Source: an archaeon
GTDB lineage: Archaea; Iainarchaeota; Iainarchaeia; Iainarchaeales; CSSED10-239
DNA: 8,512 nucleotides
Reading direction: 5' to 3'
NCBI GenBank assembly: GCA_035387745.1
Contig: DAOOON010000028.1
Coordinates: 1 to 8,512 of the forward strand
Part shown: positions 184 to 6,265 of the stretch, piece after piece
Layout of the letters: every line of letters begins with the position of its first letter
How positions within the stretch are numbered: the stretch's first letter is position 1
Made by a program: the position numbers and the translations under genes
The notes under the pieces: model-generated
What the model was told of the DNA's origin: nothing
Databases searched by the model: none
The model's input: the letters and a program-made list of their open reading frames with translations, nothing else

Positions 184-1005
184 CTACTTTTTGCGTTTTA
201 TCATAGATAATATCTTTACAAAAGCAAGCCCAAAAAAAAATATAAATGGAGGAAAAATATAATTAAGAAACAAACAAACTAATATAATCAATATAATTGG
301 AGCGGAATCGGCTTTTGACAAATTAATTATATATTTTTTATTATTATCTGGATTCTCTATTGTATGGATATAATTGTGAGTATAAACATCAATTATTGTC
401 TTTATAACTAAAAATAAAATTATTGCATAATTAAAAAATAACGCAAAAACAACAACAAATAATGGTATTAATCTAACATATGGTAAAAATAATAATCCAT
501 AAATTGTTTCTGGTTTTTCTGTATCTGCTTTAAAGTTTAGAATATAAGATAGAAGGTGATTAATAAAAAATAACAATATAGAAATACCAAAAAAGACCCA
601 ATTAATAGATGCAATTTGTTGACTAGTTACGCCTAAAAAAGCATTCTTGATAATTGATATTCTGAAAATGAAAAATAAAAATATAAATTGTAATAAAAAA
701 CCATTATAAATCCACCAATATATAAAAGCCAATAAATTTTTGAGATTTTTTATTGACGAAAAAGATAGGTAATTAATCTGGGGTAACTTAGTTAAATCTA
801 TATTAGAAACATCTATTCTTTTTTTGTTTATAATTTTAAGGAAATGGAAAAAGCCAATAATTAAGCCTTGTATAAAATACAAAAATACCATTACTGTTAA
901 GTCCCATTTCTGGACAACCGCTAAGACAATAACAATTAGATTTGTAAAAATAAGCGAAACAAGGGATATATCCCATTTTAACTTAAAGTTTTCTAGAAAA
1001 CTCAT
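184..1005 (-). CDS. Polytopic membrane protein of unknown function, paralog of 1010..1891
   Basis: 273-aa ORF with an ATG start and TAG stop, containing many hydrophobic segments. It aligns with the upstream neighbour in three blocks: N-terminal (D-I-x-x-x-S-L-I-x-x-N...Q-K/R-W-D...Y...Q...F-F...L-K), central (LFFINHL[LI]S[YF]I) and C-terminal (KTxxD[VI]YxHNxxH). The start lies 4 nt after the upstream stop. Confidence 0.8.
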   Translation of the reverse strand: MSFLENFKLKWDISLVSLIFTNLIVIVLAVVQKWDLTVMVFLYFIQGLIIGFFHFLKIINKKRIDVSNIDLTKLPQINYLSFSSIKNLKNLLAFIYWWIYNGFLLQFIFLFFIFRISIIKNAFLGVTSQQIASINWVFFGISILLFFINHLLSYILNFKADTEKPETIYGLLFLPYVRLIPLFVVVFALFFNYAIILFLVIKTIIDVYTHNYIHTIENPDNNKKYIINLSKADSAPIILIILVCLFLNYIFPPFIFFFGLAFVKILSMIKRKK

Positions 1006-1009
1006 AATC

Positions 1010-1891
1010 TCACTTTATTTTTATTGGTTTTATCATTATAGCAAGATAAATTAAAAAATAAATAAACCAAATAAGCAAACCAATTATTCCCAAAAAAATG
1101 GGAAAAATAAAAAAAACAAACAAAAATATTGTTAAAATAACATTTCTCCTTTTTTCTTCTGGACTAATTACTCTTTCTTTTATTGATTTGACTATTGCGT
1201 CATTTTGCTTAATTTTATTAATCGTTTCATTTTTTTCTTTTTGAATGTCTTCAGTTGTTTCATGTTCTTTATTATGGAAATAAATATCTACAGGAGTTTT
1301 AAGTATAAATAGTACAATTAATGCAATAAGGTTAAATGAGAAATCTGTTTTACTAATAAAATGGGTAAATAACCCCGTTAACCATATAGTCATATGTATA
1401 ACTACAAATCTATATCCTGTAATTTTAGTAAGTGTCTGTGCTAATTGCTCTTTATTTGCTTCTTTTTTTAAATAATAAATAAAAGAAATTAAATGGTTAA
1501 TAAAAAATAAGATTATTACTGTGATTATCCCGAAACTAAAAATAGGCGGTTTAAATAAAAGCCAAAAACAAAGAAAATAGAATCCATAAAAAAAAATCCA
1601 GGTAATTTGCTGTATAATTACTTGAAATTTAGCAACACTTTTGGATTCTATAGATATAAGTTGTCCTGTGTTATCTATTGCACCAATAAAGCTAATATTT
1701 TTCTTAAATAGTAGTTTTAATATCGTAAAAAACCAAAGTATAATAGTTTGAAATAAATAAATATAAAATATCGTTCCAACATCCCATCTCTGAATGATCG
1801 CTAATGCCAAAGTAATAATATTTACTAATATTAAAGAAATCCAGGTAATGTCTGTTTTAAATTGATATTTTACATTATCTATTAAATTCAC
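1010..1891 (-). CDS. Polytopic membrane protein of unknown function, paralog of 184..1005
   Basis: 293-aa ORF whose start codon is GTG (cac at 1889..1891). A Shine-Dalgarno-like GAGGGT (accctc, 1897..1902) precedes it. The hydrophobic profile and conserved motifs are shared with the downstream paralog. Confidence 0.8.
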   Translation of the reverse strand: MNLIDNVKYQFKTDITWISLILVNIITLALAIIQRWDVGTIFYIYLFQTIILWFFTILKLLFKKNISFIGAIDNTGQLISIESKSVAKFQVIIQQITWIFFYGFYFLCFWLLFKPPIFSFGIITVIILFFINHLISFIYYLKKEANKEQLAQTLTKITGYRFVVIHMTIWLTGLFTHFISKTDFSFNLIALIVLFILKTPVDIYFHNKEHETTEDIQKEKNETINKIKQNDAIVKSIKERVISPEEKRRNVILTIFLFVFFIFPIFLGIIGLLIWFIYFLIYLAIMIKPIKIK

Positions 1892-3738: not shown

Positions 3739-4605
3739 ATGGAAAGAGACACAATACTAATAATCGAAGGAGGAGCAATGAGTGGAGTATTTGCTGCAGG
3801 GGTATTGACTGCCTTCTATAAAAAAAATCTTTATCCTAGAATACATAGCATATATGCTGTTTCTGCGGGAGCTCACAACACTGCTTATTTTATTTCAAAG
3901 CAAGTTACCTTTGCTTCAGAGGTATATACTAAAGAACTAGTTTCAAAAAGAGCAAAATTTTTAAATATGGATGTCTTTGAGATGCTCCACAAGGTAAAAA
4001 ACCTAGTATTACATAAAAAAAGTTTACAGCTAATTGATTTAGAAGTACTTAAAGAAATTGAAAGAATAAAGCACAAACTTGATCTTAATGAAATAAAAAG
4101 AAGCAAGATTAATTTTTATGTTAAGGTATATGACACTAATCAACTTAAACCTTTAATATTAAATGCTAAAGAAAACACTCTAGATATAATTGAAGTTTCT
4201 TCTTATCTGGCCCCCTATATTTCTCTTAAAACAAAATATAATAACCTTTATGATGGCGAAGAAATACCTAATGACAAATTTCTAAAAATAGTAAAAGAAA
4301 ATAAAGATAAAAAGATAATTTGGATTATGAATGAGAAAAAAACTCTTGCTCATAAAATTAGAAACAGCCCATTTACTTTACTTAATCTATTCACTAAATC
4401 TCTGTATTTTGGCGTACCGTTTTTCATACATTATGTTTACCATGTTTTTGAAGACCCCACAATAGAAGATGTACAAAAATATTCCAATGTTATAGTCATT
4501 TACCCAGAAGGCAATGTTAGAAGATTAACTAAATTTACTTCTAACAAGAAAAATCTAATTAAACTATATCAAGAAGGATTATTAAAAGGTAAAAGAGCAA
4601 TCTAA
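3739..4605 (+). CDS. Patatin-like phospholipase family protein (YjjU-like)
   Basis: N-terminal IIEGGAMSGVFAAGVL is the oxyanion-hole GGxxxG motif. IYAVSAGAHNTAYFI is the nucleophile-elbow SAG motif, with Ala replacing the first Gly of GxSxG. A downstream YDGE is a candidate for the DG[GA] catalytic Asp. Motif order and spacing resemble E. coli YjjU as I recall it. Confidence 0.8.
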   Translation: MERDTILIIEGGAMSGVFAAGVLTAFYKKNLYPRIHSIYAVSAGAHNTAYFISKQVTFASEVYTKELVSKRAKFLNMDVFEMLHKVKNLVLHKKSLQLIDLEVLKEIERIKHKLDLNEIKRSKINFYVKVYDTNQLKPLILNAKENTLDIIEVSSYLAPYISLKTKYNNLYDGEEIPNDKFLKIVKENKDKKIIWIMNEKKTLAHKIRNSPFTLLNLFTKSLYFGVPFFIHYVYHVFEDPTIEDVQKYSNVIVIYPEGNVRRLTKFTSNKKNLIKLYQEGLLKGKRAI

Positions 4606-4616
4606 GAATAAAATTA

Positions 4617-4855
4617 TAGTAGTTGGCTATAAGCCACTTTCTGTACTAAATTGGCAATTCGTCTAAGCGGAAGTTGACTTCCTTGCACTAGAGTTATATT
4701 CTGCGTCTTTCAGCCTCTCTTTCTGTCCATCAGTTCTACACATCATTTGTTAAAACAAAAAGCCGTTATATTCTCTATTCAGAAAATAACTTTAACCTAG
4801 TGAGTGGACTTTCCTTTTGGAATAAAAATCCCAAATGCCAAAACACCAACTACTA
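4617..4855 (-). ncRNA. rnpB: RNase P RNA, compact form (about 239 nt)
   Basis: P1 is UAGUAGUUGG (4855..4846) pairing with CCAACUACUA (4626..4617). P2 is UUGGCA (4841..4836) with UGCCAA (4656..4651). P3 is UUUGGGAU-UUUU-AUUCCAAA. CR-I is GGAAAGUCC (4814..4806) and CR-V is ACAGAAAGUGGCUUAU (4644..4629). The P4 pairing AAG[U]CCAC/GUGGCUU keeps the conserved bulged U. P5 is CACUAG/CUAGUG. The P15-like hairpin is GGAAG-UCAA-CUUCC. Confidence 0.85.
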
Positions 4856-4879
4856 ATATATAAATAAAGAGAAAAAGAG

Positions 4880-4887
4880 AATAAAAA
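4880..4887 (-). promoter_or_regulatory. Candidate TATA box (TTTTTATT) for RNase P RNA
   Basis: It lies about 25 nt upstream of the first P1 nucleotide (4855) and abuts the stop codon of the upstream CDS (4891). The spacer CTCTTTTTCTCTTTATTTATATATTAG ends with the same TATATTAG seen in front of tRNA-Ala(CGC). Confidence 0.4.
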
Positions 4888-4890
4888 GCT

Positions 4891-5637
4891 TTACTTTTTA
4901 TCATGTTGATAATCTGCAATCAATGAATAGTTAGAACTTGTTATTACATATAATAAAAATGTTGCTAATATATTTGCGACAATTGTAGCGGCTGTTTCAT
5001 TAAATAAACTAAGAATTATCCATAATAAACCAACAACTACAATTCCTAGTATTCCATATCCTAAACAAAACATTGTTATTGTAAAATAATCTTTTGTAAA
5101 TATTGCTTTTAGGTTTTTTAACATTTTAAAATTTTCTGAAAATTTATTTGTTTTAAAACTTCTTACTAAACCAATAACTTTCATAAATTCTAATGCCATT
5201 ATTGCAAAACCAAATAAGAAAAACAAAAACATTATAGTTACTAATGTGCCCGTAGATGAACTATAGATTATTGATTCGATACTCAAATCTGTAAGCTCTC
5301 CAATATTTGCGGTTGCTGCAACAGATATTAAAAATACACCTAAAACTATTACTACTACTTCTATAATCAGATATATTAATGACATTAGTAAATAAACTCC
5401 TGAGTTTTTCAATATTGATTTACTAGATGTTTTAAGATTTTTTAATTTCCCTGAAATCTTTGTGCCTATAACTCCTCCTATTATTCCGAATAACAAGGAT
5501 AAAAAAATAAGAGAAATCGTTGTATTTTGTAATGCATTAGCTATAGAGTATATTATTATTAATACAAAAATAAATAACAAATAATACCACTTAATTCCTG
5601 TAAGTCCGTAAAATATTGATTTTTTAAAGTCTATCAT
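4891..5637 (-). CDS. Polytopic membrane protein of unknown function (248 aa)
   Basis: ATG start and TAA stop, with about six long hydrophobic segments including Gly-rich ones (LLFGIIGGVIG). It begins 15 nt after the upstream small ORF. I recognise no catalytic motif. Confidence 0.75.
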   Translation of the reverse strand: MIDFKKSIFYGLTGIKWYYLLFIFVLIIIYSIANALQNTTISLIFLSLLFGIIGGVIGTKISGKLKNLKTSSKSILKNSGVYLLMSLIYLIIEVVVIVLGVFLISVAATANIGELTDLSIESIIYSSSTGTLVTIMFLFFLFGFAIMALEFMKVIGLVRSFKTNKFSENFKMLKNLKAIFTKDYFTITMFCLGYGILGIVVVGLLWIILSLFNETAATIVANILATFLLYVITSSNYSLIADYQHDKK

Positions 5638-5652
5638 ATTATCACAATTAAT

Positions 5653-5895
5653 TTATTTTTTTGATCTAATTATTTTCTTTCTTATTTCTGGAGGTAATGC
5701 TGACATCTTTTTATGGAATGCATCTATTTCCTCTTGTAGTTTAGGTGTTGGTTTTTGTAATCTCTGTAATTTTGCTTTTAATTTTATATAATCTCTTTCT
5801 GTTCTTAATTCTAATTTTTTTAAATTTCTATTTGCAATTATTCTTTTTAATGTTCCTGATTGTGCAGTTTTACCTGCTGGTTTTGTTACTGGCAT
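5653..5895 (-). CDS. Small, highly basic hypothetical protein (80 aa)
   Basis: ATG start about 36 nt downstream of a TTTTTAAATT TATA-like element. The sequence is Lys/Arg-rich and predicted helical. It lies between the tRNA-Ala cluster terminator and the membrane protein gene. Confidence 0.6.
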   Translation of the reverse strand: MPVTKPAGKTAQSGTLKRIIANRNLKKLELRTERDYIKLKAKLQRLQKPTPKLQEEIDAFHKKMSALPPEIRKKIIRSKK

Positions 5896-6062: not shown

Positions 6063-6134
6063 TGGACTCCGCGAGACTCGAACTCGCAACCCCTTCCGTG
6101 CAAGGGAAGTACTCTACCATTGAGCCAGGAGCCC
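6063..6134 (-). tRNA. tRNA-Ala(UGC)
   Basis: GGGCTCC-TG-GCTC-AATGGTA-GAGT-A-CTTCC-CTTGCAC-GGAAG-GGGTT-GCGAG-TTCGAGT-CTCGC-GGAGTCC-A. It has the G3:U70 Ala identity pair and a canonical cloverleaf. CCA is not encoded. Confidence 0.95.
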
Positions 6135-6163
6135 TCTAAAAAGTTTTCTTAAATTGCTTGAAA

Positions 6164-6195
6164 CTAATATAATTAACTAAAGAAATAAATATAAA
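6164..6195 (-). promoter_or_regulatory. Promoter repeat copy A (TTTATATTTATTTCTTTAGTTAATTATATTAG)
   Basis: One of three copies of a 32-nt element. This copy differs at one position from the other two, which are identical to each other. The TATA box TTTATATT lies at the distal end. The element ends 29 nt upstream of tRNA-Ala(UGC). Confidence 0.6.
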
Positions 6196-6204
6196 TAAAT
6201 CTAT

Positions 6205-6253
6205 TTTAAAAATTTGGAAGTGTTCTTTTGGAATGAAATACTTTTCTTCCAAA
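6205..6253 (-). terminator. Hairpin plus U5 tract downstream of tRNA-Ala(AGC)
   Basis: A perfect 8-bp inverted repeat, UUUGGAAG (6253..6246) and CUUCCAAA (6220..6213), is followed directly by UUUUU on the minus strand. CCUUUUCUUU tracts also follow the tRNA 3' end directly. Confidence 0.5.
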
Positions 6254-6265
6254 GAAAAGGATTCA

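What the first reader, a model, noticed from the sequence alone, without database searches (positions are those of the whole stretch)
4617..4855. Unannotated, strongly reduced RNase P RNA in the ORF-free gap
The 285-nt ORF-free gap is visibly less AT-rich than its flanks. On the minus strand it contains every catalytic-core landmark of RNase P RNA.
- P1 is a perfect 10-bp helix.
- P2, P3 and CR-I (GGAAAGUCC) are present.
- CR-V is ACAGAAAGUGGCUUAU.
- The P4 helix leaves the universally conserved bulged U.

The molecule is only about 239 nt, against roughly 300 nt for typical archaeal type A RNAs. P15 is a plain hairpin (GGAAG-UCAA-CUUCC) with no L15/P16/P17 module, the part that contacts the tRNA 3' end in type A RNAs. 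Only about 104 nt lie between the two P5 strands to form the whole specificity domain. A long helix, GUUAUUUUCUG/CAGAAUAUAAC, takes up part of that stretch. Inside it, AUGAUGU...CUGA (4729..4746) resembles a C/D-type K-turn, a possible L7Ae site as in archaeal P12. This looks like a type-M-like or further minimised variant, relevant to how far RNase P can shrink in reduced archaea.
Basis: partly seen in the sequence, partly recalled or inferred. Interest (0 to 1): 0.7.

Follow-up and report, generated by a model that had tools for sequence, protein, structure and literature searches.

The report
Shrunken RNase P RNA in a DPANN archaeon
The gap holds a real gene for the RNA subunit of RNase P, the enzyme that trims tRNA precursors. 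It is a stripped-down form, found in a small group of tiny archaea, that lacks several helices all described archaeal types keep and that standard annotation thresholds miss.

Summary

**The gene.** Window 4617-4855 (minus strand) is a 239-nt archaeal RNase P RNA. Rfam RF00373 aligns end to end at 62.9 bits (E 2.6e-17). That is below the gathering score of 84, so routine annotation would miss it.

**Relatives and structure.** Eighteen relatives came from public genome and metagenome contigs; with the window they make 15 distinct sequences. On them the proposed structure is 97% paired, and 41 of 62 pairs show compensatory changes, with changes in P1, P2, P3, P4, P5, P12 and P15.

**Catalytic domain.** It resembles type M: P15 is a plain hairpin, and L15, P16, P17 and P6 are absent.

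**Specificity domain.** It is smaller than in type M, because both P8 and P9 are gone. A single 11-bp helix (P7 fused with P10/11), well supported by covariation, leads straight into CR-II, a P12 carrying a K-turn, and CR-III. This is the reverse of the type T reduction.

**Organism and clade.** The host is an AT-rich member of the DPANN phylum Iainarchaeota. Close relatives score 40-63 bits with RF00373. A sister group with 26% GC is not detected at all.

**Verdict.** This is a new structural variant of a known ribozyme. Activity and protein partners are inferred, not shown.

The parts
4617..4855 (-). RNase P RNA gene, 239 nt, bounded by the two P1 strands
   Evidence: RF00373 matches the full model at 62.9 bits, E 2.6e-17. 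The family model R1 scores 282.5 bits over 4617-4855.
4846..4855 (-). P1 5' strand (RNA 1-10); it pairs with window 4617-4626
   Evidence: 100% paired in the 9 close relatives, with changes on both sides at 2 pairs and one G-C to G-U; 4 pairs with changes on both sides in the wider set.
4816..4841 (-). P2 5' strand (RNA 15-20, pairing with 200-205 = window 4651-4656) and the P3 hairpin (RNA 21-40)
   Evidence: P2 has C-G to U-A and A-U to U-A swaps. All 8 P3 pairs change on both sides across the family.
4804..4815 (-). CR-I and the P4 5' strand: AGGAAAGUCCAC, with U48 bulged
   Evidence: Invariant in the close relatives. It pairs with GUGGCUU in CR-V. One A-U to G-C compensatory change is seen in L004.
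4796..4802 (-). P5 5' strand (RNA 54-59, plus the G60-U164 wobble); partner strand at window 4686-4691
   Evidence: 4 of 6 pairs change on both sides in the wider family, for example CACUAG/CUAGUG against CAUUAG/CUAAUG.
4780..4790 (-). 5' strand of the 11-bp helix (RNA 66-76), read as P7 fused with P10/11; no P8 or P9 branches from it
   Evidence: 98% paired with 5 pairs changed on both sides in an unfitted alignment; 9 of 11 in the wider set. RNAalifold predicts it independently. The rival P9 hairpin fails at the positions that covary.
4693..4703 (-). 3' strand of the 11-bp helix (RNA 153-163)
   Evidence: Same evidence as for the 5' strand.
4763..4779 (-). J11/12 = degenerate CR-II, AAUAGAGAAUAUAACGG (RNA 77-93)
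   Evidence: In the family alignment it sits at the same position as the canonical ACAGAAACAACACGG of L070 and GCAGAAAAAAAACA of group B. Rfam aligns the L070 stretch to CR-II.
4719..4762 (-). P12 (RNA 94-137): proximal 9-bp stem 94-102 with 129-137, and a distal K-turn hairpin
   Evidence: The stem has 5 pairs changed on both sides and 8 in the wider set.
4730..4746 (-). K-turn motif AUGAUGUG...CUGA: G112-A126 and A113-G125 sheared pairs, a 3-nt bulge at 109-111, and a C-stem of C107-G128 and A108-U127
   Evidence: Aligned to the P12 K-turn of the RF00373 consensus at high posterior probability. Positions 111-117 and 121-130 are invariant in the 9 relatives. The K-turn geometry is read from the sequence. 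L7Ae binding is inferred from PMC5499556 and PMC9371926.
4704..4718 (-). J12/11 with CR-III, AGAGGCUGAAAGACG (RNA 138-152), containing the UGAAA T-loop motif
   Evidence: GCUGAAA is invariant and aligns to the UGAAACG of the Rfam consensus.
4669..4682 (-). P15 reduced to a hairpin, GGAAG-UCAA-CUUCC; L15, P16, P17 and P6 are absent
   Evidence: Rfam aligns 6 nt where the model has 37. 3 to 4 of the 5 pairs change on both sides.
4657..4668 (-). CR-IV / J15/2, GCUUAGACGAAU
   Evidence: Matches the RF00373 consensus GCuuAGucGAAU. GCUUAGA is invariant in the family.
4629..4644 (-). CR-V and the P4 3' strand, ACAGAAAGUGGCUUAU
   Evidence: Invariant in the family and matches the Rfam consensus.
4880..4892 (-). 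Putative BRE/TATA promoter, AAAGCUUUUUAUU, at about -37 to -25 from the P1 5' end
   Evidence: Identical in all 9 close relatives despite 78-95% RNA identity. The tRNA genes in the window have the same layout: a T-rich box, then 24-27 nt, then TATATTAG. The promoter role is inferred.
4853..4860 (-). TATATTAG motif overlapping the RNA 5' end; likely transcription start region
   Evidence: 7 copies in the window against 0.99 expected, reached by 0 of 200 shuffles. Four of them precede the three tRNA genes and this RNA. The role is inferred.
4606..4616 (-). 3' flank UAAUUUUAUUC with a U-run; likely archaeal oligo-T terminator
   Evidence: T-runs follow the P1 3' strand within about 10 nt in all relatives. 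The role is inferred.

Best explanation
Window 4617-4855 (minus strand) encodes the catalytic RNA subunit of the RNase P ribonucleoprotein of an AT-rich Iainarchaeota (DPANN) archaeon.

**Shown here**
- It is a homologue of archaeal RNase P RNA with the full catalytic core: P1, P2, P3, P4 with the bulged U, P5, CR-I, CR-IV and CR-V.
- P15 is a closed hairpin, so L15, P16, P17 and the P6 pseudoknot are absent.
- In the specificity domain, the P7-P8-P9-P10 junction is replaced by one continuous 11-bp helix. That helix opens directly into CR-II, a P12 that carries a K-turn, and CR-III.
- The fold is maintained by compensatory substitutions across a clade in which the RNA diverges much faster than the 16S rRNA.

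**Inferred by homology with the Methanocaldococcus jannaschii holoenzyme and bacterial structures**
- The RNA is transcribed from its own BRE/TATA promoter and ends at an oligo-T run.
- The CR-II/CR-III T-loop module stacks on the tRNA elbow to measure the distance to the cleavage site.
- L7Ae binds the P12 K-turn and helps recruit Rpp21-Rpp29 to the small specificity domain. Pop5-Rpp30 supports the catalytic domain.
- Because L15 is missing, the 3' RCCA of the substrate is not base-paired. This fits the window's tRNA genes, which encode no CCA and have leaders that need trimming.
- The bracing and substrate contacts normally given by P8 and P9 are presumed to be supplied by proteins or to be dispensable.
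For: **Match to the family**
- RF00373 aligns the full model at 62.9 bits, E 2.6e-17, on the minus strand only.
- Noise for this model on random genomes is at most 14.3 bits (PMC3579882).

**Relatives**
- Eighteen relatives were recovered from genome and metagenome contigs.

**Covariation**
- On an alignment not fitted to any structure, 95.9% of cells are paired and 23 of 62 pairs change on both sides. With partners slid by 1-3 columns the figures are 33-50% and 3-8 pairs.
- On the wider model-fitted alignment (15 distinct sequences), 97.1% of cells are paired and 41 of 62 pairs are compensatory.
- RNAalifold independently predicts P1, P2, P5, the 11-bp helix, P12 and P15.

**Absence of P9**
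- The Rfam-style P9 hairpin is only 88.9% paired. It breaks in L043, L115, L122 and L145 at exactly the columns where the long helix covaries.
- In L070, Rfam's own alignment deletes both P8 and P9 and places the homologous helix at P10/11, next to a canonical ACAGAAAC CR-II.
- The family alignment puts the window's AAUAGAGAAUAUAACGG at that CR-II position.

**Other parts**
- P15: 6 nt are aligned where the model has 37.
- The K-turn aligns to the consensus P12 K-turn and is invariant in the close relatives.

**Context**
- The tRNA-Ala genes in the window lack an encoded CCA and sit 2 to about 35 nt downstream of promoter-like boxes.
- The order 16S, tRNAs, ORFs, RNase P RNA on one strand is conserved in relatives.
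- The upstream AAAGCTTTTTATT box is identical in 9 relatives.
- A published survey of archaeal genomes reports at least one RNase P protein in every genome examined, and no HARP (the protein-only RNase P) in any DPANN genome examined (PMC6380272).
Against: - The score is below Rfam's curated threshold of 84.
- No expression data, mapped ends or activity are available.
- The protein subunits Pop5, Rpp30, Rpp29, Rpp21 and L7Ae could not be looked for in this genome; none is in the window.
- CR-II departs from the consensus (AAUAGAGAAUAUAAC against ACAGAAACGAYAC), so whether it still forms a T-loop is not established.
- P4 and P5 are invariant among the 9 closest relatives. Their covariation comes only from more distant members, in an alignment fitted to the model.
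- The C-stem of the K-turn is only 2 bp long.
- A second, conventional RNase P RNA elsewhere in the genome cannot be excluded.
Confidence: 0.88

Rival explanations
1. It is an ordinary member of archaeal type M by descent, and the low Rfam score only reflects AT-rich drift. A small P9 hairpin (RNA 72-75 with 82-85) is present, as the Rfam alignment draws it.
For: - The Rfam alignment places UUUCUGAAUAGAGAA on the P9 positions.
- That hairpin is 88.9% paired across 9 relatives, and one pair shows C-G to U-A changes.
- The more distant L004 has a clear P9 with a GAGA loop at a similar position.
Against: - The hairpin breaks in four relatives exactly where its nucleotides covary with the 3' strand of the long helix.
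- RNAalifold chooses the long helix.
- L070 and group B have the helix directly next to a canonical CR-II, with no hairpin in between.
- The host is a DPANN archaeon, not Methanococcales or Archaeoglobaceae.
- Other Iainarchaeota RNAs are reduced differently: they keep P9 and have a tiny P12. The reduction is therefore lineage-specific.
Confidence: 0.07
2. It is a decaying relic. tRNA 5' processing has been taken over by a protein-only enzyme or made unnecessary by leaderless tRNAs, as in Nanoarchaeum equitans, and the RNA is no longer a working ribozyme.
For: - The organism belongs to DPANN, the group that includes the only known organism without RNase P (PMC4919922).
- The RNA has lost several helices, its CR-II departs from the consensus, and it evolves fast: 78-95% identity where 16S is 97-99% identical.
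Against: - Compensatory rather than random substitutions occur in every helix.
- CR-I, CR-IV, CR-V, CR-III and the K-turn are invariant across relatives.
- The promoter box and the gene position are conserved.
- HARP is reported absent from all DPANN genomes examined (PMC6380272).
- The window's tandem tRNA-Ala genes sit downstream of promoter boxes with 2 to about 35-nt leaders.
Confidence: 0.03
3. The region is a box C/D-type small RNA or another small RNA, and the RNase P resemblance is incidental.
For: - AUGAUG and CUGA boxes are present.
- There is a weak match to a Tetrahymena C/D snoRNA family (13.2 bits, E 6.2).
Against: - That match is at noise level, whereas the RNase P model matches end to end with E 2.6e-17.
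- The boxes lie inside a covarying P12 stem and align to the K-turn of the RNase P consensus.
Confidence: 0.01

Closest known systems
[quoted passage not shown]
   Same: - P15 is a closed hairpin without L15, P16, P17 or the P6 pseudoknot, and P8 is missing.
- P12 keeps a K-turn of the kind bound by L7Ae.
- CR-I to CR-V are present.
- The tRNA genes encode no CCA.
- Overall size is similar, about 240-250 nt.
   Different: - P9 is also missing, so the junction is one continuous helix.
- A 6-nt single-stranded linker (GUUAAA) lies between P5 and that helix, where archaeal RNase P RNAs are reported to have none, apart from a 2-nt linker in one type T RNA (PMC3579882).
- In the window only one K-turn is well formed (AAUGAUG rather than GAUGAUG).
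- CR-II departs from the consensus.
- The host is a DPANN archaeon, so the similarity is most simply convergent.
- It scores below the RF00373 threshold.
[quoted passage not shown]
   Same: It is a strongly reduced archaeal RNase P RNA that the general archaeal model fails to annotate.
   Different: The reduction is the opposite one.
- Type T keeps a type A-like catalytic domain and the P7/P8/P9 stems, but loses or truncates P10-P12 (PMC3579882); modelling of one type T RNA adds loss of the CR-II T-loop (PMC13462272).
- This RNA keeps P10/11, P12, CR-II and CR-III, and loses P8, P9 and L15-P17.
- P2 is 6 bp here, against 3 bp in type T.
   Same: They are short, have a hairpin P15, and lack P8. 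They come from the same superphylum and partly the same phylum.
   Different: - They retain a GNRA-capped P9 next to a canonical ACAGAAACGA CR-II.
- Several have a minimal P12 without a K-turn.
- L004 and L009 pass the Rfam threshold at 108-109 bits.
- This sample is biased, because the search pattern required short spacing.
Archaeal type A RNase P RNA
   Same: The catalytic core, the numbering of helices, and the absence of P13, P14 and P18 are shared.
   Different: Type A is about 300 nt or more. It has the P7-P10 four-way junction, and L15/P16/P17/P6 with a further K-turn.

Membership tests
RNase P RNA (universal core) | P4 helix with a bulged U, formed between CR-I (GGAAAGUCC) and CR-V (ACAGAAnnnnGCUUA) | tested here: met
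   AAG[U]CCAC pairs with GUGGCUU. It is 100% paired in 15 distinct sequences, with one A-U to G-C compensatory change.
RNase P RNA (universal core) | P1, P2 and P3 helices and CR-IV in the canonical order | tested here: met
   All are aligned to RF00373. Pairs changed on both sides: P1 4, P2 3, P3 8.
RNase P RNA (universal core) | Cleaves the 5' leaders of pre-tRNA | not testable with these tools
   This needs reconstitution or genetics.
Rfam RF00373 RNaseP_arch | Score at or above the curated gathering threshold of 84 bits | tested here: not met
   62.9 bits over the full model, E 2.6e-17. Close relatives score 40-61 bits, group B is not detected, and L070 scores 96. The shortfall comes from the deleted P8, P9 and P16/17 and from the AT-rich sequence, not from lack of homology.
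Archaeal type M | No L15, P16, P17 or P6; P15 closed by a small loop | tested here: met
   GGAAG-UCAA-CUUCC; 6 nt where the model has 37. The stem covaries. Definition from PMC3579882 and PMC4919922.
Archaeal type M | P8 absent (typical type M) | tested here: met
   The model's P8 positions are deleted, and there is no sequence between P5 and the long helix to form it.
Archaeal type M | The rest of the specificity domain is as in type A, including P9 on a P7/P9/P10 junction | tested here: not met
   A continuous 11-bp helix is favoured by covariation over a P9 hairpin. That type M keeps P9 follows from the published lists of what it lacks and from my own knowledge of the M. jannaschii RNA.
Archaeal type M | Found in Methanococcales and Archaeoglobaceae | tested here: not met
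   The window's 16S is 90-99% identical to that of contigs labelled Candidatus Iainarchaeum or ainarchaeum.
Archaeal type T | Type A-like catalytic domain, a 3-bp P2, and P10-P12 truncated or missing | tested here: not met
   P2 is 6 bp, L15-P17 are absent, and P10/11-P12 with CR-II and CR-III are present.
L7Ae-binding K-turn in archaeal P12 | C-stem, a 3-nt bulge, then tandem sheared G-A and A-G pairs | tested here: met
   The sequence gives C107-G128 and A108-U127, a bulge at 109-111, then G112-A126 and A113-G125. It aligns to the consensus K-turn and is invariant. Protein binding was not tested.
L7Ae-binding K-turn in archaeal P12 | Double K-turn (KT2 plus KT3), as in Thermococcales, Methanococcales and Methanobacteriales | tested here: inconclusive
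   The window reads AAUGAUG. Four relatives (L043, L007, L115, L122) read GAUGAUG, like the consensus. The partner strand was not analysed rigorously.

The most novel reading that the evidence does not exclude
This clade of Iainarchaeota carries a fourth structural class of archaeal RNase P RNA.
- The whole P7-P8-P9-P10 junction has collapsed into one helix, and L15/P16/P17/P6 are also gone.
- What remains of the specificity domain is a rod that carries only the two conserved loops (CR-II and CR-III) and one K-turn.
- It would be the smallest natural specificity domain that still keeps both conserved loops, and the mirror image of the type T reduction.
- The holoenzyme would then need proteins to replace the P8/P9 contacts.
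- The RNA evolves so fast that a sister group is invisible to the Rfam model. RNase P RNA may therefore be under-annotated across DPANN genomes.
Probability: 0.7. Interest if true: 0.55.

Novelty: new variant of a known kind. Interest (0 to 1): 0.5.

Why it matters
RNase P RNA is a model for how much RNA structure a ribozyme can hand over to proteins. Archaeal forms are currently sorted into types A, M and T (PMC13462272, 2026).

- **Structure.** This RNA combines the type M loss (L15-P17, P8) with loss of P9, while keeping the elbow-recognition loops. None of the three types has that pattern. It gives a natural test of whether P8 and P9 are needed for substrate positioning or only for bracing.
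- **Annotation.** This clade scores 40-63 bits against a threshold of 84, and its sister group is not detected. Genome surveys that rely on Rfam thresholds would wrongly report these DPANN genomes as lacking RNase P RNA. That matters because a DPANN organism, Nanoarchaeum equitans, is the textbook case of life without RNase P.

Tried and rejected
- **Default Rfam scan.** The whole window at gathering thresholds gave only the 16S and three tRNAs. The RNase P match appears only with E-value reporting.
- **Other weak Rfam matches.** Matches in the gap to MIR3627, TtnuCD32, GABA3 and enod40 have E of 1.8-9.7 and were dismissed as noise.
- **RNaseP-T score.** Type T was rejected on structure instead.
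- **Single-sequence fold.** The minimum-free-energy fold has a z-score of only -2.4 and finds P1, P3, P5 and P15 but garbles P4 and P12. It is not decisive for an AT-rich RNA.
- **Rfam-drawn P9 hairpin.** Tested and rejected.
- **Flanking ORFs as RNase P proteins.** The 248-aa ORF just upstream is a multi-pass membrane protein and the 80-aa ORF is a Lys-rich basic protein; neither has a Pfam hit. The other ORFs are two DUF6498 proteins, a DUF2666 protein, thymidine kinase, a patatin-like protein, and a 235-aa ORF without a Pfam hit.
- **MAFFT alignment of P3.** It misplaces P3 (76% paired); the model-fitted alignment repairs this (94%).
- **Promoter pattern.** A fixed-spacing promoter pattern search was uninformative. 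The short TATATTAG motif was informative.
- **Literature.** Searches found no description of RNase P RNA structure in DPANN lineages. The library covers only open-access papers.
Full report
**1. What is in the window**

The window is AT-rich: 26.6% GC outside the stable RNA genes. On the minus strand it carries, in order:
- an archaeal 16S rRNA gene (6710-8204);
- three tandem tRNA-Ala genes (6063-6516);
- two ORFs (5653-5895 and 4891-5637);
- a 285-nt ORF-free gap (4606-4890).

A patatin-like ORF on the plus strand ends at 4605. The gap holds only chance ORFs of 40 aa or less. Its central 239 nt are 36.4% GC.

**2. Check of the observation**

These are the perfect 10-bp P1, P2, P3, CR-I AGGAAAGUCC, CR-V ACAGAAAGUGGCUUAU, P4 with a bulged U, the P15 hairpin GGAAG-UCAA-CUUCC, the long helix GUUAUUUUCUG/CAGAAUAUAAC, and the AUGAUG...CUGA motif.

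- At default (gathering) thresholds Rfam reports no RNase P in the window.
- With E-value reporting on 4550-4950, RF00373 (archaeal RNase P) aligns its whole length (1-288) to 4618-4854(-) at 62.9 bits, E 2.6e-17.
- The curated threshold is 84 bits. The published maximum for the same model on random genomes is 14.3 bits, and real archaeal RNAs scored 53.6-228.6 bits (PMC3579882).
- The hit is therefore real homology that falls below an annotation cut-off.
- The other matches in the gap have E of 1.8-9.7 and are noise.

**3. Relatives**

- A pattern joining CR-I and CR-V at short spacing found 115 stretches in one genome per species.
- A tighter pattern found 34 stretches in metagenomes.
- nhmmer and a covariance model built here (R1) separate a narrow family scoring above 120 bits.
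  - Group A: the window, L027, L127, L144, L007, L122, L043, L145, L115, L123 and L131; 238-246 nt; 78-95% identical to the window.
  - Group B: L021, L086, L120, L139 and L142; 285-287 nt; 26% GC; a P3 of about 60 nt.
  - L070 and L130 (identical RNA sequences, 241 nt).
  - L004 is a more distant relative at 69.5 bits.
- 16S identity to the window is 96.7-98.9% for group A and 94% for L139 and L142 of group B.
- It is 90.3% for L070, whose record is named Candidatus Iainarchaeum; L021 is named Candidatus ainarchaeum.
- Candidatus Iainarchaeum belongs to the phylum Iainarchaeota in the kingdom Nanobdellati, that is, DPANN.
- The RNA diverges far faster than the 16S. L131 has 98.9% 16S identity but only 77.6% RNA identity.
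- The gene order 16S, tRNAs, ORFs, RNase P RNA on one strand recurs in L027, L131, L007, L021 and L070.

**4. Structure and covariation**

RNA coordinates count from 1 = window 4855. The structure tested was:
- P1: 1-10 with 230-239
- P2: 15-20 with 200-205
- P3: 21-28 with 33-40
- P4: 45-47 and 49-52 with 219-225
- P5: 54-59 with 165-170
- long helix: 66-76 with 153-163
- P12 stem: 94-102 with 129-137
- P15: 174-178 with 183-187

*Unfitted alignment.* On a plain MAFFT alignment of the nine group A sequences, not fitted to any structure, 95.9% of cells pair and 23 of 62 pairs change on both sides. With the partners slid by 1-3 columns the figures are 33-50% and 3-8 pairs. No shuffle reached the observed values on four of the five measures, and 2 of 500 did on the fifth. 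RNAalifold, run on the same alignment without any input from me, predicts P1, P2, P5, the 11-bp helix, P12 and P15.

*Wider alignment.* On the model-fitted alignment (19 sequences, 15 distinct), 97.1% of cells pair and 41 of 62 pairs are compensatory. Every helix has at least one compensatory pair, including P4 and four of the six P5 pairs. That alignment leans toward the model by construction. The unfitted result is the cleaner test, and it agrees.

**5. P8 and P9 are both missing**

The Rfam alignment deletes P8 but draws a P9 hairpin from UUUCUGAAUAGAGAA and deletes most of CR-II. I tested that hairpin (72-75 with 82-85) against the long helix.
- The hairpin is 88.9% paired. It fails in L043 and L115 (C opposite A) and in L122 and L145 (C opposite A).
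- These are exactly the columns at which the same nucleotides keep pairing with the 3' strand of the long helix through U-A to C-G and C-G to U-A changes.
- L070 settles the homology. Rfam's own alignment there deletes both P8 and P9. It places CUUCUGU/ACAGAAG at P10/11, directly next to a canonical CR-II, ACAGAAACAACACGG.
- In the family alignment the window's CUG-AAUAGAGAAUAUAACGG occupies the same columns. So does group B's AGU-UGUUGCAGAAAAAAAACA.

The 11-bp helix is therefore P10/11 extended by, or fused with, P7. AAUAGAGAAUAUAACGG is a degenerate CR-II. No hairpin branches off. A 6-nt linker (GUUAAA) joins P5 to the helix. Apart from a 2-nt linker in one type T RNA, archaeal RNase P RNAs are reported to have no such linker (PMC3579882).

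L070 has a possible small hairpin (CAUCA-ACA-UGAUG) in that linker, which I read from the sequence but did not test. L004 keeps a clear GAGA-capped P9. Other Iainarchaeota and DPANN RNAs in the sample keep P9 and instead shrink P12. That sample is biased toward short RNAs by the search pattern.

**6. The rest of the molecule**

- P15 is a 5-bp hairpin with a 4-nt loop. Six nucleotides align where the model has 37, so L15, P16, P17 and the P6 pseudoknot are absent. The stem covaries.
- CR-III (GCUGAAA) is invariant.
- In P12 the sequence gives a standard K-turn:
  - a C-stem of C107-G128 and A108-U127;
  - a bulge at 109-111;
  - sheared pairs G112-A126 and A113-G125, then U114-U124, G115-C123 and U116-A122;
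  - a 5-nt loop.
- The K-turn aligns with the K-turn of the Rfam consensus at high posterior probability and is invariant in group A.
- Four relatives read GAUGAUG, like the consensus 'double K-turn' strand, whereas the window reads AAUGAUG. I leave the double K-turn open.

**7. Expression signals (inferred)**

- AAAGCTTTTTATT, at about -37 to -25 from the P1 5' end, is identical in all nine group A sequences, which otherwise differ by up to 22% in the RNA.
- The three tRNA-Ala genes each have a TTTATATT box followed 24 nt later by TATATTAG. The RNase P RNA has the same layout.
- TATATTAG occurs seven times in the window against 0.99 expected, and 0 of 200 shuffles reach that number. Four of the copies sit in front of the three tRNA genes and the RNase P RNA.
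- A U-run follows the P1 3' strand in all relatives.
- These features suggest an independent transcript that starts within a few nucleotides of the mature 5' end.

**8. How it most likely works**

*Shown:* homology, fold, which parts are present and absent, and purifying selection on the structure.

*Inferred from established knowledge of RNase P:*
- The P4/CR-I/CR-V core carries out metal-dependent cleavage.
- CR-II and CR-III form the T-loop platform that reads the tRNA elbow.
- L7Ae binds the P12 K-turn and contacts Rpp21, which with Rpp29 binds the specificity domain. Pop5-Rpp30 binds the catalytic domain (PMC9371926, PMC13462272, PMC5499556).
- Loss of L15 removes pairing with the 3' RCCA, as in type M and eukaryotes, where CCA is not genome-encoded (PMC4919922).
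- In line with this, none of the window's three tRNA genes encodes CCA. They also have leaders that need trimming.
- A published survey of archaeal genomes found at least one RNase P protein in every genome examined and no HARP (the protein-only RNase P) in any DPANN genome examined (PMC6380272).
- I could not search this genome for the subunits.

**9. Comparison with known types**

As of 2026, archaeal RNase P RNAs are classed as A, M and T (PMC13462272).
- Type M lacks P8, P16, P6 and the P15 recognition loop (PMC4919922; PMC3579882). This RNA shares all of these losses but also lacks P9, has a P5 linker, and comes from a different archaeal superphylum. It works like type M but fails two membership features.
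- Type T keeps a type A-like catalytic domain and P7-P9, and truncates P10-P12, with a 3-bp P2. That is the opposite pattern.
- I found no paper describing RNase P RNA structure in DPANN lineages, within an open-access library only.

**10. Verdict**

- It is a new structural variant of a well-known ribozyme, not a new kind of system.
- Interest is moderate. It adds a fourth reduction pattern to archaeal RNase P RNA, gives a natural test of what P8 and P9 are for, and exposes an annotation blind spot. Group A scores 40-63 bits and group B is undetected by RF00373. This matters in the one superphylum where absence of RNase P has been claimed for an organism.
- The main gaps are expression, the protein partners and activity.

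Noticed in passing
window 6266-6337 (-): The middle gene of a tandem CGC/AGC/TGC tRNA-Ala array has the anticodon AGC (A34). L027, L007 and L115 have the same AGC, whereas the gene at that position is GGC in L122 and L070. To my knowledge A34 tRNAs are unusual in Archaea, so this looks like a recent G34-to-A34 switch within the clade.
   Followed up: partly
window 4853-4860, 6164-6171, 6349-6356, 6518-6525 (all -); also 279-286 (-), 799-806 (+), 4965-4972 (-): TATATTAG occurs 7 times against 0.99 expected, reached by 0 of 200 shuffles. Four copies lie just upstream of the three tRNA-Ala genes and the RNase P RNA, each about 24-27 nt after a TTT(A/T)TATT box. This is probably a shared stable-RNA promoter and initiator. 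A similar T-rich box precedes the 16S near 8380-8395.
   Followed up: partly
window 6063-8204 (-): The 16S rRNA gene is followed by three tRNA-Ala genes, each with its own promoter-like box, and then by protein genes. No 23S gene follows in the 6.7 kb downstream that the window covers. None of the tRNA genes encodes CCA. The order 16S, tRNAs, ORFs, RNase P RNA is conserved in relatives.
   Followed up: partly
L021 1941-2225, L086 6975-7260, L120 3211-3495, L139 1559-1845, L142 409-695: The sister group of RNase P RNAs is 285-287 nt long, only 26% GC, and has a P3 expanded to about 60 nt. In the two members tested (L021, L086), RF00373 does not detect it at E <= 1e-4.
   Followed up: partly
L009, L041, L074, L090, L092 (other Iainarchaeota), the L141 group, L076 (Woesearchaeota), L065 (Nanohaloarchaea): Many other DPANN RNase P RNAs in the sample also have a hairpin P15 and no P8. 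They keep P9, and several shrink P12 to a few base pairs without a K-turn. That is a different route of reduction. The sample is biased by the short-spacing search pattern.
   Followed up: partly
L001-L115 (for example L003, L010, L025, L033, L057, L109 Dojkabacteria and Saccharibacteria; L062, L066, L072 Elusimicrobia): The short-spacing CR-I to CR-V pattern also hit many bacterial contigs, especially candidate phyla radiation and Elusimicrobia. Model R1 matches these end to end at 25-58 bits. This suggests compact bacterial RNase P RNAs there.
   Followed up: no
window 184-1005 (-) and 1010-1891 (-): Two adjacent paralogous genes encode DUF6498 membrane-family proteins. They are followed by genes for a DUF2666 protein, an unassigned 235-aa protein and a thymidine kinase.
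   Followed up: no
window 4891-5637 (-) and 5653-5895 (-): Two ORFs lie between the tRNA array and the RNase P RNA. One is a 248-aa multi-pass membrane protein and the other an 80-aa Lys/Arg-rich protein; neither has a Pfam match. The end of the 248-aa ORF and its stop codon are conserved next to the RNase P RNA promoter in all group A relatives.
   Followed up: partly
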